Source of the DNA: Octopus sinensis
Taxonomy: Eukaryota
Direction: 5' to 3'
Length of the DNA: 64,000 nt
Assembly (NCBI RefSeq): GCF_006345805.1
Contig: NW_021836000.1
Span: forward strand, 221,407 to 285,406
The position numbers were made by a program. Below are positions 21,001 to 30,000 of this stretch, piece after piece. Numbering within the stretch: the stretch's first letter is position 1; each line of letters starts with the position of its first letter.

Positions 21001-24000
21001 ATTAATGAAGTATTGTGGGAATCGTTCTAATTTTTTTATTATAATAAAAAAACGTTAAAATCATTTCTGGTCAGTCCACAAGAAGTGATAATCTCATAAT
21101 TAGAATTTATTTATCAGACATAATTTTATTTTAATTTGAAATAAATTTTAATAATAATCTCTGTTCCCTTTCAACGCATATTCCACGTGTTATAATAAAT
21201 ATATCAACCTCGCCAACTCGGACATTGTGGCAATGATAGAGTTTCATTAACCGTGCTTACTAGTTTAAGAAAATAAGACCAGGAACAAAAGACCGCTGTG
21301 AAAATACGGAACACTATCGATGCCCGGATAAGTTACCAAGCACAGATTGAGAAGGAAATGCCCAATTTGATCGTTATTGCGTGATACTACATAAATACGG
21401 AAAATTTCAGTGTGTCCACTTTATAAGACACTGACGAGAGCTGGTGAGTCATGTGGTCGAAGAATGTGCAGGGACTCTGTCCACCACGGGACATTTCACC
21501 AACTTTATTTTCTCAATAGATCTATGTATTGAGAAAAGCCAGATTACTAGATAAAGTGCGGAGTGGCCATGATATGCGCTCTAAACTATATTAACCTAAA
21601 TGGATAACGATGACGTTCAGTGCACATGTTTAATTATTATATGAGTTCTAGAGCAATGGAATTACTGCCAAGATTGAAGGGAATCTGATTTATGAGAGTA
21701 CAACTGACTTGACTGATGGAATATTCGCCGGATTTGGACTGTCGGGATACAAGGTGGCGGACTTTGACGAGGTTGAATACTACGGTTTCAACTAATCATT
21801 TACTTTATTTTCTCTATCACTAACTTTCTTGATTAAACTATTGCTTAAAACCACTCTTAAAATAAAGGAATTATATTAGCACTCCTTCAGCTCTCATAAT
21901 CTAGATCAGGGTTTCTCAAGTTTTTTAACGTCGGGGCCAAATCGATAATTAACCATTGTCTTCGGGGCCGCAGAATAAATTAAATTAAAACTTTCATTAA
22001 CTTTTAACTAATTTTTTTTTAGATTCATTTTTTATTCAGAAACCGAGATAGTTAGTCTTAATTAATTAAAGGAAAATGACTAAAACGAAAAATTGTTAAC
22101 TAAAACGAAAAATTGTTAGCTATTTTAACTAATTGTTAACTAATTTGTCATAACACGGAATATAGGAGGCACATGTAGATCGCAAAAGCTGGCATAAGTG
22201 ATTATCAGTCAATTTATTTCGATATTTATTTTTTATGTGAATCATTTTACTGAAAATTGACTCACATAAATAAGTGGATCCGAACATTGAAGCATATTTA
22301 TAAGCATTTATGAGTATATTCGGATATTTTTCTTTGGGAAGTGAACTATAAAATTCCATTAAATTTTCAATCTTTTGCACTGAGGTAAATTGCACATCTG
22401 ATTGAAGGTCTATCAATTCTAATTGGAGTGATGGCGGAGCATTCTTAGGATCTATATTGAATGGTGCTGCAAAAATTTTCATTGATGGCAAAATTTCATC
22501 AAAATTCTTAAAATAAACTAAATTTTAATAAACCTTAGAACGTTTTTCAAATTCAACAATAAGGTGACTGATAATGGTAGTATATTTTTCAAATGAACCG
22601 TTAGCTTTATTTTCACTCAAACAAGTAAAATGAATTGTATCTTTGAGCATTATTTGATCCCTCCAAAGTTTTAATTTTGATATAAAAGAAGCAATAGATC
22701 CATAGAGTTGATGGCAAAATTTATATTTCCCCTGTAATTCACAATTTAACGACGATAAATGAGAGGTTAGATCTACCCAAAAAGCTAAATCGGCAATCCA
22801 CTCTTTACTGCTCAACAAATCATGGTATTTGTGGTCTTTAACAAATTCTCTTATTTGAGGGAGTAGTTCATAAAATCTAACTTCTATTCAAGCAAATATA
22901 CCTTTTGAGGCACGCGGCACGACTCAACCATCGAACAGTGGTATGGTAAAGCACATCATTATGCACTGTGTCAATTTCCACTAACATTTTTTTAAATCTC
23001 CTGTGATTGAGAGATTTACCGCGTATCCAATTCACAATGGACAACACCGTACTTATTACATTTTGCATTTTAAGTGACTTTGCGATTATATTCTCCTGAT
23101 GAATGATACAATGTTGCCAAAATATAGGATCAAGATTTTTTTCAAGTCTCCATTCTGAATAAAGTCCATGAAACCCTTTATTACGACCAATCATATTCGC
23201 CCCCCCATCAGTACATATGGAAATTATTTTGGAAGGATCAATGTCAAATTCTTTAATACTTTCAAGGAATTCGTTAAGTACATCCATTCCTTTTGTAGTG
23301 CCTTTTAATGAACGAAGAGAAAAAAATTCTTCAGAAATTTTAAAATCCGAAGTGACACCTCTAATGCATACGACCATTTGTTCGGTATCAGAGATATCTT
23401 TACTCGTGTCGACAGCAAAAGAATGATATAAAAAATCTTTCGATGTTCTATAAAAATTATTTTTAATAGTAAAGAACTTGATTAGCTGACGGGCAAGGTC
23501 CTCAAAAATACATTCTATTCTTCTTGTAATAGTATCATTACTTAATGGTAATCGTTTTGCAATATTTTGTATATTTGACGGACAACATTCATCACAAAAA
23601 ATGGAAATAGCAGTTTTAATAATTTCTCCGTCAGAATAAGGTTTCATATTTACAGCAAGAAGGTGGCTAATTTTATAAGACGTTAATAACTGATGCTTAT
23701 TTTCCACTGGTTTAAATATTGAGGACTGATTTTTAAATGACGTCTTTAATATATTGAGTTTTTTTTTCCTTGACTCTCCGAGATATAAATTGTATATTTC
23801 GGAGTGCTTCTTATAATGACGTTCAATAGTATAATTTTCAATGAATTAATGACACAGTTGCATATCAAACAAACAGCTTTACCATTCAGTTCAACGAAAA
23901 AAAACTTTTCTTCCTATTCAATTTGAAATTCTCTATTTTCTTGAGATAATGTTCGATATTTCTTTGATGGCATGAAAAAATACTCAACCTGAAATATATT

Positions 24001-27000: not shown

Positions 27001-30000
27001 TTGTAATGACGAATACTCCGATGCACAGACATAACAAATAGCAACGTGATTATAATTTATTATAATTGTTTCATTATAAATAATTTTTAAGTTAAAAATT
27101 AAACAAAAAATAAGTAAATATAGATCTTCACGCGGCACATTTTTTATCGTCCCGCGGCACAAAAATGTGCCGCGGCGCAGTGTTTGAAAACCTCTGGTCT
27201 AAACTATTAACATTTGAGTTATCGCTAATTTCATTATTTGGATTTTCTCACACTTTCTATTGCTTAGTTAAAACCTCTCAGTGGTAATGACTGGGTGTGT
27301 CAATTAGAATGCAAATCTGCTTGGTTTGTCTAAATCAGTGGTTCTTAACCTTTTTTAAGTCAGCGCCCCCTTTTGACACAATTTCGAAGCTTCAAAATTT
27401 CAGCGCCCCCCTATTATTTAATTTATTTTTTTTCAATTATAGATTTATTTGGCAATTTTTTCGCCAATTGTTTCATTTTAATATTTTCGAATATTACTTA
27501 TTATTTTTTTAGAATTAAAAAGGGTATTCACAAACCAAACTTTTTTATATAAAAAAATTTTAGTGACTGCCTTGTGCTTGATGGGAATTTGTCAATCGTT
27601 TTATGTCAGCTTCAATAGTCGACAGACTTAGTCTCAAATCTCCTCTATTCACAATTTGTAATTTATTTCTTTTTTTGGTCAAAATATTAGAGACTGCACT
27701 AAATCCTCTTTCAACTAGATATGTTGAAGGAAATGCTATTATAAGTGTTTCAATTTCATTCCACAATAAAGGATATTTTTTTCTATGAGTAACCCAGAAT
27801 TGTTGATATCCATATTTGTTGAAAATGACTTTAGCTTCAAAGTCATATTTCAGATTTAATAAATTTTCTGTTATTTCTTGAGATAAATTAACGTTTTCAG
27901 TTTCAAATGGATTTATATACCAATCAAAAAATTTTAAATTTTCTAAATCTTCAAAGCGGATTTTCATGTCATCTTTTAACATTTTTAGATGCAAGCAAAA
28001 GCATTCACAGTCAGAATCCGTTAATTTTTCGACCTAATAAATATTATTACAAAAAATAACCCCAAATTTTTAGATTTGGAAAATTAATAAAAATCTTTTT
28101 CTTAATATTGTTTTCATAAAGTTGTAATTTTTCAATAAAAGGCATAATAATTCCTTTTACATTTATTAAATTGATATTGTTTCCTTGCAAGCTAATATTT
28201 ACTTGGTTGATTTTATAAAAAATATCAGCTAGATAAGCTATATCAGCTTTCAATAAAATCAACTTACTAAAATGATTAAGGAATAATTACCTAAAAATTC
28301 TCTGCTCATGTAACTGACAAAATTCGTACACACAAGACAATTTGAATTTAGAATTAATAGAAAAGCACGTGATAATGATTTACAAAAACTAATAAAATAT
28401 TTATAATAATTAAAAAAAATTAAAATTCCAGCGCCCCCCTAATATGTTCCAGCGCCCCCAGGGGGGCGCCAGCGCCCCCGTTAAGAATCACTGGTCTAAA
28501 TGGACAAAGTTTTTTGAATAATGGAATGTGTAATAACTATTAAGCAACAACGATTATGTAATAGAATTTTAATATAAATAGAATGGACGAATCACGTTCG
28601 AACAACGATACCGGGATCCAGTTACTATTGGTCGCCGAGCGGATGGACAAGCAATTCCCATGCAATATCGAGAACGATATCCGTTGAAAAGAACCAATCT
28701 TTGGGAGTAGTTTGAATAATCCTTTATAAATCTTTTATAAATTATATGATTATATAAATTTTAGTATTACTGATTACACGGTGTATTATTGATACGTTTG
28801 TTGGAATTGATTATGTTTATTATTTAATTCGCACTTTATTTTTTATGTAAATGGATTGAAAGGAATAATCTGTGATGTAATTTTTTTAATGCTTACATTA
28901 TCTGAAAATTCATCATTTTGTGGTATTTTTTTAGTTTATTCCTATAATCTGTTTATATATTAAAATTTTCGGTTTTGCGAATTGGTTTGTTTATCGCAGG
29001 GGTGGCCAACCTTTTCACCGGCGAGCTACTTTTCATATTGCGATTTTTGGCGATCGACTTATATATTTTATCGCCGCTTTCTTGCACTGTTTTTTGATTG
29101 AGGGAAACTATAAAAAGTAATCAAATTTGGAGACCACCAACCCAAATTGATTTGCTAGATAAATAGTCTCGTTATCTAAATGTTGATCAGTTCGAGATTG
29201 ATAGAAGACTCGTGGTTGATCTAACGTATAAATCAATTTATTTTGTTAAATACATAAATAGATAGGCTGGAAGGGAATAAAATTCATTGGATATTCATAT
29301 GAATTATACGCGTTTCTGCGTGTGGAATTTGTTGTATCTCCAGATTCACCTTTAAGATACGTTTCTATCACTGATACAGTGTGATTGTAGTTATTCGCCA
29401 TGCATAGAGGCATGTATGTATCTCTTAATTACACTAACTGATTATTTCAAAATTCAATAGTGTCAACCGAGAGTATTTCGACGATGTAGTTCGTGCTACA
29501 GTTATCGATATATAAATTCCCACTTCGAAGGCTCTGGACTTAGTTAGTAAAATTACTTAGTTAATTAGTTTCTTTTTTAATAAAATTACAAATTGAATTT
29601 GGCGAATTCGACATTTAATGTCAATACAGTGGAAGTTGTGACTGTTGCTTGAATATAACATCTATTTTTAATAACAATTAAGCCTAATAAATATCACTAA
29701 CGACCATGTCAAATTCTGTCATAGACAAATACTGAGTATTGGATAAACATATTTTGATTGGGGTTTGAAATACTTATTTTAGAGCTGGTTTAAAATAAAA
29801 GAAATGAAAGAGAATGGGGATTTTGACATTCTGATGCAATACCATGACAGAAAAACGCTTCTTTTGTAATAATTATGTCACATCCCTTGGTTAGTGGGAA
29901 CTACCTAGTCAGACACTTTATTCTCACTATGTCATATCTTGCCTTCAATCAAAAGTCTACGACTCAAAAGAAGATTAAAAAATTCTTAAATAATCTTTTC

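What the first reader, a model, noticed from the sequence alone, without database searches (positions are those of the whole stretch)
21907..28493. DNA transposases carry host-sized 22-33 nt spliceosomal introns
Seen: removing GT-AG segments rebuilds conserved motifs. hAT1 has 3 introns (e.g. CLKR|FYEL), hAT2 has 4 (GL|VSLL, DW|IRNPF) and hAT3 has 2, none at an evidently shared position. The Merlins (3 and 1), Tigger (1) and the Ginger-like element (1) also have them, whereas I found none in the retroelements. Most of these introns break the frame or contain stops, so splicing is required. Known: animal Buster/Charlie transposases are typically a single exon. Inference: micro-introns have been gained repeatedly by resident DNA transposons, either because expression here depends on introns or because intron gain is active. 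Such elements might be non-functional after transfer to hosts with normal minimum intron size, and splicing could act as a host switch on transposition.
Basis: partly seen in the sequence, partly recalled or inferred. Interest (0 to 1): 0.85.

Follow-up and report, generated by a model that had tools for sequence, protein, structure and literature searches.

The report
Tiny introns inside dicyemid DNA transposons
Three hAT "jumping genes" in what is most likely a dicyemid parasite genome have transposase genes split by 23-33-base introns of the same tiny size as the host's own, an expected but apparently unreported case.

Summary
Window 21907-28493 carries three Buster-type hAT transposons on the minus strand, each with terminal inverted repeats and an 8-bp target-site duplication.

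A spliced protein-to-DNA alignment with 47 full-length relatives recovers:
- three GT-AG introns in hAT1 (30, 25, 27 nt);
- four in hAT2 (33, 31, 23 or 32, 27 nt), whose removal gives an intact 584-aa frame;
- one solid intron in hAT3 (27 nt).

Merlin (3 and 1) and Tigger (1) elements have them too. A host aminopeptidase gene in the window has nine introns of 24-28 nt.

- hAT1 is a damaged copy, with a TAG stop and a 1-nt frameshift.
- hAT3's second intron is doubtful.
- hAT2 intron 3 and the hAT3 intron share position and phase.

The host is most likely a dicyemid. Near-identical proteins are labelled Octopus sinensis, the octopus from which Dicyema japonicum was collected.

Intron-bearing DNA transposons with host-sized introns are already known (Ac, P, Tol2, BuT2). 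This is a new member of that kind. Repeated intron gain is plausible but untested. No RNA data or eukaryotic genomes were available. Ginger and retroelement claims were not checked.

The parts
21907..24151 (-). hAT1: a 2,245-bp Buster-type hAT transposon. It is near full length but defective in this copy.
   Evidence: TIR CAGGG(T/G)TTCTCAAGT. The arms including the TSD are 23 nt and 96% complementary (I6). Pfam Dimer_Tnp_hAT E=2.6e-7 on the C-terminal ORF. phmmer gives 5183 hits at E<=1e-3. Paralogue proteins are 99% identical.
21899..21906 (.). hAT1 target-site duplication ATCTAGAT, left copy. The right copy is 24152-24159.
   Evidence: It fits the Buster consensus nnnTAnnn (PMC3517528, passages).
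23448..23477 (-). hAT1 intron 1: 30 nt, phase 2, in frame and without a stop.
   Evidence: Called by 44 of 47 queries. The relative P0016 lacks these 10 residues. P0067 has a 10-residue insert at the same place.
22877..22901 (-). hAT1 intron 2: 25 nt, phase 2, at CLKR|FYEL.
   Evidence: Called by 46 of 47 queries. P0052 reads straight across it. The paralogue models P0001, P0152 and P0153 run into it and stop (..YICLNRS*).
22507..22533 (-). hAT1 intron 3: 27 nt, phase 0, contains TAA.
   Evidence: Called by 43 of 47 queries. P0052 reads straight across it.
23914..23916 (-). TAG stop in hAT1 exon 1, where paralogue proteins have W. This is a mutation, not an intron.
   Evidence: Flagged by 27 of 47 queries.
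23835..23838 (-). A-run in hAT1 with one base missing relative to paralogues (SLK-NYTIERHY). It is a frameshift or a homopolymer assembly error.
   Evidence: Frameshift events at 23831-23846 appear in 40 of 47 queries in all.
25064..27196 (-). hAT2: a 2,133-bp Buster-type hAT transposon with an intact five-exon transposase gene. Exons are 27032-26809, 26775-26241, 26209-25678, 25654 (or 25645)-25539 and 25511-25164.
   Evidence: TIR CA(T/G)AGGTTTTCA and TSD GTCTAAAC at 25056-25063 and 27197-27204 (I23). 584 or 581 codons with no internal stop. Pfam Dimer_Tnp_hAT E=1.8e-6. DUF4371 and zf-BED hits are below cut-off.
26776..26808 (-). hAT2 intron 1: 33 nt, phase 2, contains stops. Its boundaries are the least certain.
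   Evidence: 33 nt in 22 of 47 queries, 39 nt in 13, 36 nt in 7.
26210..26240 (-). hAT2 intron 2: 31 nt, phase 0, at GL|VSLL.
   Evidence: Called by 44 of 47 queries.
25655..25677 (-). hAT2 intron 3: 23 nt, phase 1. An alternative acceptor gives 32 nt (25646-25677). Both keep the frame.
   Evidence: 23 nt in 15 of 47 queries and 32 nt in 14 of 47. Both give an open frame.
25512..25538 (-). hAT2 intron 4: 27 nt, phase 0, contains stops, at DW|IRNPF.
   Evidence: Called by 24 of 47 queries; other boundary choices account for 17 more. hAT3 reads FDWYINPF without interruption at this site.
27336..28493 (-). hAT3: a 1,158-bp internally deleted hAT that keeps the C-terminal third of the transposase.
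   Evidence: TIR CAGTG(G/A)TTCTTAAC and TSD GTCTAAAT at 27328-27335 and 28494-28501 (I7). Pfam Dimer_Tnp_hAT scores 20.7 bits, just under the 21.4 cut-off. 34-50% identical to hAT2 exons.
28034..28060 (-). hAT3 intron: 27 nt, at the same protein position and phase as hAT2 intron 3.
   Evidence: Called by 34 of 47 queries. Positions are P0009 residue 444 against 447, both phase 1. A further 1-nt frame break follows it.
8254..8744 (+). Merlin_A: three introns at 8254-8279 (26 nt), 8475-8496 (22 nt) and 8719-8744 (26 nt), all phase 1.
   Evidence: Called by 3, 3 and 4 of 4 queries. Pfam DDE_Tnp_IS1595 scores 26.1 bits, below the 27 cut-off.
36800..36824 (+). Merlin_B intron: 25 nt, phase 1, at the same protein position as Merlin_A intron 1 (P0167 residue 61).
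   Evidence: Called by 3 of 4 queries.
2961..2990 (-). Tigger_A intron: 30 nt, phase 0, ends in an in-frame TAG.
   Evidence: Called by 33 of 46 queries. Pfam DDE_1 E=4.4e-31 on the downstream exon.
55847..58152 (+). Host aminopeptidase gene, used as the yardstick. Nine introns of 25, 26, 26, 27, 24, 26, 28, 25 and 24 nt.
   Evidence: Spliced alignment with P0155 and P0156.

Best explanation
The region holds three cut-and-paste hAT transposons of the Buster family: one intact (hAT2), one recently damaged (hAT1) and one deletion derivative (hAT3). The genome they sit in is most likely that of a dicyemid mesozoan.

Their transposase genes are split by ordinary U2-type GT-AG spliceosomal introns of 23-33 nt. 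That is the size class the host's spliceosome handles in its own genes. The element is transcribed and the host spliceosome removes the micro-introns. Only the spliced mRNA encodes the full transposase, with its zinc finger, DDE/RNase-H-like core and hAT dimerisation domain.

The elements move as DNA, so the introns are copied with them and are inherited by all copies of a family.

Shown here: the element boundaries, the GT-AG segments, frame restoration, colinearity with relatives, and the size match to host introns. Inferred: actual splicing, and the dicyemid identity of the host. My best guess, at moderate confidence, is that most of these introns arose after the families settled in the dicyemid lineage.
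For: **Transposon anatomy**
- TIRs and 8-bp TSDs that fit nnnTAnnn (PMC3517528 passages).
- The hAT dimerisation domain.
- 5183 phmmer hits, with the named ones being GTF2IRD2-like or EPM2AIP1.

**Introns**
- 7 GT-AG segments in hAT1 and hAT2, the best supported called by 43-46 of 47 relatives.
- hAT2 becomes an intact 584-codon frame once they are removed.
- GT-AG ranks 1 of 256 dinucleotide pairs after correcting for abundance.
- The junction shuffle probabilities multiply to about 3e-5.
- P0052 and P0016 read across hAT1 intron sites exactly as the splice predicts.
- The 25-nt intron is also present in 99%-identical paralogues, whose models stop inside it. The stop and the frameshift are not present in them.

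**Host-sized**
- Nine host introns in the window measure 24-28 nt.
- The published dicyemid median is 27 bp (PMC6543705, passages).
- The 13 transposon introns measure 22-33 nt, median 27.

**Same pattern in other superfamilies:** Merlin and Tigger.

**Host identity**
- The window's aminopeptidase is 98% identical to a protein labelled Octopus sinensis, and the next hit is only 29%.
- D. japonicum was collected from O. sinensis (PMC6736024, passage).
- Among animals, introns under 30 bp are reported only in dicyemids and myxobolid myxozoans (PMC13644364, abstract and passages).
Against: - No transcript evidence was available, so splicing is not shown.
- By raw alignment score GT-AG is not unique. 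A/T-only pairs such as TA..TT score as well or better in this AT-rich DNA.
- Boundaries are ambiguous for hAT2 intron 1 (33, 36 or 39 nt) and intron 3 (23 or 32 nt).
- hAT1 intron 1 is in frame and stopless, so it could be a 10-residue coding insert.
- hAT1 and hAT3 in this window are not functional as they stand.
- Thirteen of 47 queries placed a frameshift at 25776 in hAT2, although the frame there is open.
- The host assignment rests on labels and literature, not on a phylogeny.
Confidence: 0.8

Rival explanations
1. The introns are real but were not gained here. The ancestral hAT, Merlin and Tigger lineages already had introns at these positions, and the introns shrank along with the host's own.
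For: Some introns are old within families. hAT2 intron 3 matches the hAT3 intron in position and phase. The P0067 family has an insert at the hAT1 intron 1 site. Merlin_A intron 1 matches the Merlin_B intron. Animal hATs with several introns exist, for example BuT2 with five exons (PMC3942097, passages). Host introns in dicyemids are described as shortened at conserved positions (title of Ogino 2010, seen only as a reference in PMC6543705).
Against: All 7 hAT1 and hAT2 positions differ, although both belong to one family of transposases. The 10 closest full-length relatives I looked up sit on contigs of 2.0-4.5 kb, which leaves little room for ordinary introns. Mar (Buster) was reconstructed as one exon (PMC3517528, passages). 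None of this is decisive, because no relative's genomic structure was seen.
Confidence: 0.35
2. The segments are not introns. They are random insertions and decay in dead transposon copies.
For: hAT1 and hAT3 do carry genuine damage: a stop and 1-nt frame breaks. A chance GT..AG excision is available at 6-51% of shuffled junctions.
Against: All four interruptions of hAT2 are GT..AG segments of 23-33 nt, and removing them leaves an intact 584-codon frame with no other defect. The abundance-corrected GT-AG rank is 1 of 256. The intron is shared by 99%-identical paralogues, while the true mutations are not. The same pattern appears in Merlin and Tigger.
Confidence: 0.03
3. These are domesticated host genes derived from hAT transposases, as their RefSeq name 'GTF2IRD2-like' suggests. 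On this view they acquired introns as host genes do.
For: Relatives are named GTF2IRD2-like or EPM2AIP1. Domesticated transposase genes are known to gain introns (PMC3369469, abstract and passages).
Against: All three have TIRs and 8-bp TSDs. hAT1 has at least four near-identical proteins, seen on five contigs in all, in another assembly. hAT3 is a typical deletion derivative.
Confidence: 0.04
4. The segments are removed at the DNA level, as developmentally eliminated sequences, rather than from RNA.
For: Only by analogy with tiny eliminated sequences in ciliates (PMC3464196). 'Circular' contigs have been reported in a dicyemid assembly (PMC6543705, passage).
Against: The termini are GT..AG, not TA..TA. 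The size and composition match the host's spliceosomal introns in the same window.
Confidence: 0.02

Closest known systems
Buster-family hAT transposons (TcBuster, Mar and relatives)
   Same: 8-bp TSD fitting nnnTAnnn, short TIRs beginning CAG, a transposase with a hAT dimerisation domain, and nearest named relatives that are GTF2IRD2/TFII-I-like (PMC3517528 passages).
   Different: Mar was reconstructed as a single 591-aa exon (PMC3517528). The elements here have 3-4 introns each, of 23-33 nt.
Intron-bearing DNA transposons: Drosophila BuT2 (hAT, five exons), maize Ac, Drosophila P element, medaka Tol2
   Same: The transposase gene is interrupted by host-type spliceosomal introns, and the introns are carried along at the DNA level. 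BuT2 introns of 58-154 nt are in the size range usual for Drosophila (exon coordinates from PMC3942097 passages; the Drosophila size norm and Ac, P and Tol2 are recalled, not checked here).
   Different: Intron length here is 22-33 nt, below what is reported for any animal outside dicyemids and myxobolids (PMC13644364). BuT2 belongs to the Tip group, not Buster.
Paramecium Tc1/mariner elements Sardine, Thon and Anchois
   Same: DNA transposons with predicted introns in their ORFs, in another host known for tiny introns (PMC3464196, supporting-information legend only; the intron size norm is recalled).
   Different: That host is a ciliate, the superfamily differs, and I did not see intron sizes or positions (supplements are closed).
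Dicyemid host-gene micro-introns
   Same: GT-AG, about 24-28 nt in this window. Published median 27 bp, with two thirds under 30 bp (PMC6543705).
   Different: The transposon introns are more AT-rich (mean 81% against 71%, my arithmetic). They are also a little more spread in length (22-33 nt against 24-28 nt).
Introners (transposons that create introns on insertion)
   Same: Both link mobile DNA and intron gain (PMC9860276 and PMC12130899, abstracts only).
   Different: Here the introns lie inside the transposase genes. The introns themselves show no TIRs or TSDs and are not copies of one another by eye. I did not test this further.

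Membership tests
hAT superfamily of DNA transposons | 8-bp target-site duplication | tested here: met
   ATCTAGAT, GTCTAAAC and GTCTAAAT flank the three elements as perfect duplications.
hAT superfamily of DNA transposons | Short terminal inverted repeats (10-25 bp) | tested here: met
   12-15-bp TIRs, each with one mismatch, all starting CA(G/T). 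The size range comes from PMC3942097 passages.
hAT superfamily of DNA transposons | C-terminal hAT dimerisation domain (PF05699) | tested here: met
   hAT1 30.7 bits and hAT2 28.1 bits, against a cut-off of 21.4. hAT3 scores 20.7 bits, just below it.
hAT superfamily of DNA transposons | RNase-H-like DDE catalytic core | tested here: inconclusive
   Pfam core models fall below cut-off (DUF4371 28.9 against 32.1; TNP-like_RNaseH_N 18.7 against 24.6). phmmer gives E about 1e-50 to full-length relatives. The motifs D(E/T)S(T/K)D, TDG, HCxxH, RW and CE..FS are visible. Their catalytic role is recalled from Hermes, not tested.
hAT superfamily of DNA transposons | N-terminal BED-type zinc finger | tested here: inconclusive
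   For hAT2, zf-BED scores 16.5 bits (cut-off 20.6) and zf-C2H2_12 scores 24.4 (cut-off 27.3).
Buster family within hAT | TSD consensus nnnTAnnn | tested here: met
   3 of 3 TSDs have TA at positions 4-5. The consensus comes from PMC3517528 passages.
Buster family within hAT | Groups with Buster transposases in a phylogeny | not tested
   No tree was built. The nearest named relatives are GTF2IRD2-like or EPM2AIP1.
U2-type spliceosomal introns | GT...AG termini | tested here: met
   All 8 hAT introns and 5 Merlin or Tigger introns. The aligner allowed only GT-AG. The control with all 256 pairs is.
U2-type spliceosomal introns | Removal restores the frame and colinearity with intron-free relatives | tested here: met
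   hAT2 gives 584 codons with no stop. P0052 and P0016 read across hAT1 intron sites.
U2-type spliceosomal introns | Length within the host's intron distribution | tested here: met
   Host introns are 24-28 nt (n=9) and transposon introns are 22-33 nt (n=13). The literature median is 27 bp (PMC6543705).
U2-type spliceosomal introns | Absent from mature mRNA | not testable with these tools
   No RNA-seq or transcript collection was available.
De novo gained introns | Absent at the same position in outgroup elements | tested here: inconclusive
   Within the window, each position is missing from the other families, except hAT2 intron 3 and the hAT3 intron. The 10 closest full-length relatives lie on 2.0-4.5-kb contigs, but their genomic structure was not visible.
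Domesticated transposase gene (GTF2IRD2-like, as labelled in RefSeq) | Immobile: no TIRs or TSDs, and single copy | tested here: not met
   TIRs and TSDs are present. Four near-identical proteins seen on five contigs in all.

The most novel reading that the evidence does not exclude
Resident DNA transposons of dicyemids (hAT, Merlin, Tigger) have each acquired their own sets of micro-introns after entering the lineage. That would mean at least 7 independent gains in two Buster families alone. It would make transposon families a dated record of ongoing intron gain in an animal thought only to have shrunk its ancestral introns. It would also tie transposase production to a spliceosome able to remove 22-33-nt introns, which would block these elements from working after horizontal transfer to almost any other animal.
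Probability: 0.35. Interest if true: 0.65.

Novelty: new member of a known kind. Interest (0 to 1): 0.4.

Why it matters
Micro-introns in dicyemid genes are known, and so are DNA transposons with introns. I found no paper that puts the two together.
- The two dicyemid genome papers contain no word starting 'transpos'. One of them mentions LINE-1 retrotransposable-element ORF2 copies.
- A search for 'dicyemid' + 'intron' + 'transposable elements' returned 9 papers, none on this by title or abstract.

There is a practical point. Standard gene finders fail on these elements. RefSeq models of the same family stop inside a retained 25-nt intron or invent long introns. Transposon and gene annotation in such genomes therefore needs a minimum intron length of about 20 nt.

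There is also a conceptual point. If the introns prove to be gains, families with near-identical copies would offer a way to time intron birth. Families with family-specific introns would offer a way to characterise it. The elements would also be natural test substrates for the lower size limit of splicing.

Tried and rejected
**Raw dinucleotide control.** I expected GT-AG to be the single best of 256 donor/acceptor pairs. It ranked 2nd (hAT1) and 8th (hAT2), behind A/T-only pairs that are 2-3 times commoner in this DNA. The signal became clear only after correcting for site abundance.

**hAT3 second intron.** The 44-nt candidate (28290-28247) is called by only 14 of 47 queries. The shorter 24-nt choice does not keep the frame, by my reading. 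The upstream part of hAT3 may be non-coding because of the internal deletion. I rejected it as a solid call.

**Retroelements.**
- I scanned 8 ORFs of at least 110 aa that looked retroelement-like or lay in GC-rich stretches. They were 30571-31032, 51652-52392, 43305-43745, 33707-34099, 35485-35991, 43025-43369, 52338-52838 and 63371-63997.
- None gave a Pfam hit, so I could not place a reverse transcriptase.
- The claim of no introns in retroelements stays untested.

**Ginger-like element.** Neither located nor checked.

**Rfam scan of the whole window.** 0 matches at gathering thresholds.

**Other hAT remnants.**
- The fragment at about 36994-37811 is decayed, with a stop at 37393 in 34 of 47 queries and no micro-intron call.
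- The element at about 11054-12968 gave only weak calls: 26 nt at 12048-12023 in 6 of 47 queries, and 27 nt at 12165-12139 in 5 of 47.

**Literature on Merlin introns.** Nothing usable. PMC5718144 mentions introns only in other senses.

**Spliced model.** It was searched exon by exon only. I used window references for single ORFs or exons.

**What stayed unchecked.**
- Genomic exon structure of relatives in other animals.
- Any RNA evidence.
- Supplements of PMC6736024 (repeat composition, fig. S2 and table S3) and of PMC3464196 (transposon figure). Both may bear on the claims and are closed.

Full report
**What is there.** Window 21907-28493 contains three separate hAT transposons, all coding on the minus strand.
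- Each has short terminal inverted repeats that begin CA(G/T), and a perfect 8-bp target-site duplication.
- hAT1 is 21907-24151 (TSD ATCTAGAT). hAT2 is 25064-27196 (TSD GTCTAAAC). hAT3 is 27336-28493 (TSD GTCTAAAT).
- All three duplications have TA at positions 4-5. That is the consensus reported for the Buster family of hATs (PMC3517528, passages read).
- Pfam finds the hAT dimerisation domain in the C-terminal ORF of hAT1 and hAT2 above the curated cut-off, and in hAT3 just below it.
- A phmmer search with the 322-aa middle exon of hAT1 found 5183 proteins at E<=1e-3. Those I looked up that carry names are called GTF2IRD2-like or EPM2AIP1, apart from the chimeric model P0067, which is named squalene monooxygenase-like.
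- Exon by exon, hAT1 and hAT2 are 26-34% identical, and hAT3 is 34-50% identical to hAT2. These are three families, with hAT3 closest to hAT2.

**The introns.**
- I wrote a protein-to-DNA aligner that allows GT..AG introns of 15-150 nt and charges for frameshifts and stops.
- I ran it with all 47 homologues of 560-660 aa among the 150 best phmmer hits.
- hAT1 shows three introns: 23477-23448 (30 nt, 44 of 47 queries), 22901-22877 (25 nt, 46 of 47) and 22533-22507 (27 nt, 43 of 47).
- hAT2 shows four:
  - 26808-26776 (33 nt, 22 of 47; 39 nt in 13 and 36 nt in 7);
  - 26240-26210 (31 nt, 44 of 47);
  - 25677-25655 (23 nt, 15 of 47) or 25677-25646 (32 nt, 14 of 47);
  - 25538-25512 (27 nt, 24 of 47).
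- With these four removed, hAT2 reads from ATG at 27032 to TGA at 25166-25164 as five exons. That gives 584 codons (581 with the other acceptor) with no internal stop.
- hAT3 has one well-supported intron, 28060-28034 (27 nt, 34 of 47).
- I searched the spliced model exon by exon only and left the joined step out.

**Is it more than chance?**
- Re-running the aligner with each of the 256 donor/acceptor dinucleotide pairs put GT-AG 2nd for hAT1 and 8th for hAT2 by raw score. It was beaten only by pairs made of A and T, which are two to three times commoner here.
- Regressing the score gain on site abundance puts GT-AG first of 256 in both elements.
- Among the 98 (hAT1) and 93 (hAT2) pairs that are as rare or rarer, the next best gain is 20 against 47, and 43 against 74.
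- Shuffling the bases around each junction produced a frame-restoring, stop-free GT..AG excision in 6-51% of 1000 shuffles. The product for the seven hAT1/hAT2 junctions is about 3e-5 (my arithmetic, independence assumed).
- An unnamed 381-aa relative (P0052) reads straight across hAT1's 25-nt and 27-nt introns exactly as the splice predicts.
- P0016 lacks the ten residues of the 30-nt segment.
- A RefSeq model of a related family (P0067) keeps a ten-residue insert at that very place. That is what read-through of an in-frame intron would give. The last point is my inference.

**True damage versus introns.**
- hAT1 in this window also has a TAG at 23916-23914, and one base missing from an A-run at about 23835-23838.
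- Proteins from 99%-identical paralogues have W and an intact SLKNYTIERHY there.
- Three of those four models (P0001, P0152, P0153) nevertheless run into the 25-nt intron and stop in it.
- So the mutations are private to this copy, while the intron belongs to the family.
- The host aminopeptidase gene also shows a 1-nt loss in a G-run near 56843. Some single-base frame breaks in this assembly, including hAT1's, may therefore be homopolymer errors.

**Host-sized.**
- Aligning two distant aminopeptidases to 55300-58400 gave nine host introns of 25, 26, 26, 27, 24, 26, 28, 25 and 24 nt.
- The thirteen transposon introns (eight hAT, four Merlin, one Tigger) span 22-33 nt, with median 27.
- They are more AT-rich than the host ones: mean 81% against 71% (my arithmetic).
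- Six of the seven hAT1/hAT2 introns would give a stop or a frameshift if retained. The 30-nt one would not.

**Other superfamilies.**
- Merlin_A has three introns at 8254-8279, 8475-8496 and 8719-8744 (26, 22 and 26 nt, all phase 1).
- Merlin_B has one at 36800-36824 (25 nt), at the same protein position and phase as Merlin_A's first.
- Tigger_A has one at 2990-2961 (30 nt, 33 of 46 queries).
- I did not check the Ginger-like element.
- The retroelement claim also stays unchecked. The eight retroelement-like ORFs I scanned gave no Pfam hit.

**Shared and unshared positions.**
- In the numbering of homologue P0009, hAT1 introns fall at residues 170, 353 and 469. hAT2 introns fall at 85, 262, 447 and about 480 (the last read on P0010, whose numbering runs within a few residues of P0009's). 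The hAT3 intron falls at 444.
- hAT2 intron 3 and the hAT3 intron share phase 1 and lie three residues apart in a variable stretch.
- hAT3 (FDWYINPF) and hAT1 read through the site of hAT2 intron 4. hAT2 and hAT3 read through the site of hAT1 intron 3.

**Whose genome?**
- The hAT1 paralogues and the aminopeptidase are 98-99% identical to RefSeq proteins labelled Octopus sinensis. The next aminopeptidase hit is only 29% identical.
- Octopus genes do not have 25-nt introns. Among animals, introns under 30 bp are reported only from dicyemids and myxobolid myxozoans (PMC13644364, abstract and passages).
- Dicyemids live in octopus kidneys, and Dicyema japonicum was collected from O. sinensis (PMC6736024, passage).
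- The dicyemid median intron is 27 bp (PMC6543705, passage).
- I conclude that the window is dicyemid DNA and that those RefSeq entries are parasite sequence in an octopus assembly. This is an inference, not a phylogeny.

**How it most likely works.** The elements are transcribed, the host spliceosome removes the micro-introns, and the spliced mRNA gives a transposase of about 580-600 aa. Cut-and-paste movement copies the introns along with the element. I recall, as general knowledge, that retroelements pass through spliced RNA and would lose introns. I did not test that here.

**Gain or inheritance.** This is open.
- For gain:
  - Positions are family-specific.
  - The ten closest full-length relatives I looked up are 590-606-aa proteins on contigs of 2,044-4,454 nt.
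  - Mar was reconstructed as a single-exon Buster element (PMC3517528).
  - A review states that vertebrate DNA transposons lack introns (PMC3369469, passages).
- Against taking this as proof:
  - Those contigs may be cDNA.
  - I saw no relative's genomic structure.
  - Some introns are clearly old within families.

**Comparison with what is known.**
- Intron-bearing DNA transposons are familiar. BuT2, a Drosophila hAT, has five exons with introns of 58-154 nt (PMC3942097, passages). Ac, the P element and Tol2 are recalled examples.
- Paramecium, another host of tiny introns, has Tc1/mariner elements with predicted introns (PMC3464196, supporting-information legend).
- New here are the host group and the extreme size.
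- The two dicyemid genome papers contain no word beginning 'transpos'.
- My searches turned up no description of introns in dicyemid transposons.
- I rate it a new member of a known kind, of moderate interest. A more interesting reading, repeated recent intron gain and a splicing-based host barrier, is not excluded.

Noticed in passing
window 21907-24151 and 55430-57692, against proteins P0001, P0151-P0154, P0034 and P0067: RefSeq proteins labelled Octopus sinensis are 98-99% identical to sequences in this micro-intron genome, so they are probably dicyemid sequence in the octopus assembly. Their models are wrong in predictable ways. P0001 stops inside a retained 25-nt intron. P0154 uses 178-nt and 41-nt 'introns'. 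P0067 is a 'squalene monooxygenase-like' chimera with a hAT piece.
   Followed up: partly
window about 56843-56852: The host aminopeptidase gene has a 1-nt frame break in a G-run (..DLW / DSFKECG..). All three query proteins needed a frameshift there. It is either a homopolymer assembly error or a real lesion.
   Followed up: partly
window 25646-25677: hAT2 intron 3 has two acceptors 9 nt apart (AAAG at 25655 and TTAG at 25646). Both keep the frame, so alternative 3' splice-site use is possible.
   Followed up: partly
window 21930-21975 and 24085-24140; 25080-25130 and 27125-27185; 27360-27415 and 28430-28480: Each hAT has its own short G+C-rich motif repeated near both ends. They are GGGGCCGCA-like in hAT1, CGCGGCAC-like in hAT2 and CAGCGCCCCC in hAT3. 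These are likely subterminal transposase-binding repeats. Seen by eye.
   Followed up: no
window about 36994-37811 and about 11054-12968: Two further hAT remnants. The first is decayed, with a stop at 37393 in 34 of 47 queries. The second is a different family with weakly supported candidate micro-introns at 12048-12023 (26 nt, 6 of 47) and 12165-12139 (27 nt, 5 of 47).
   Followed up: partly
protein cluster of P0018: One cluster at 90% identity holds 598-aa hAT proteins from spiders, a pseudoscorpion and Diabrotica beetles. That looks like recent horizontal spread of a Buster element among arthropods.
   Followed up: no
window 1914-3273, against one search hits: Besides 'Octopus sinensis' entries, the closest named relatives of Tigger_A (about 39% identity over the whole ORF) come from the microsporidian Dictyocoela muelleri. 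This copy has a stop at 3160 and frame breaks upstream of its intron.
   Followed up: no
window 38215-39225: A stretch with about 42% G+C carries long overlapping ORFs on both strands. It has no Pfam hit (2 ORFs tried) and no Rfam hit.
   Followed up: partly
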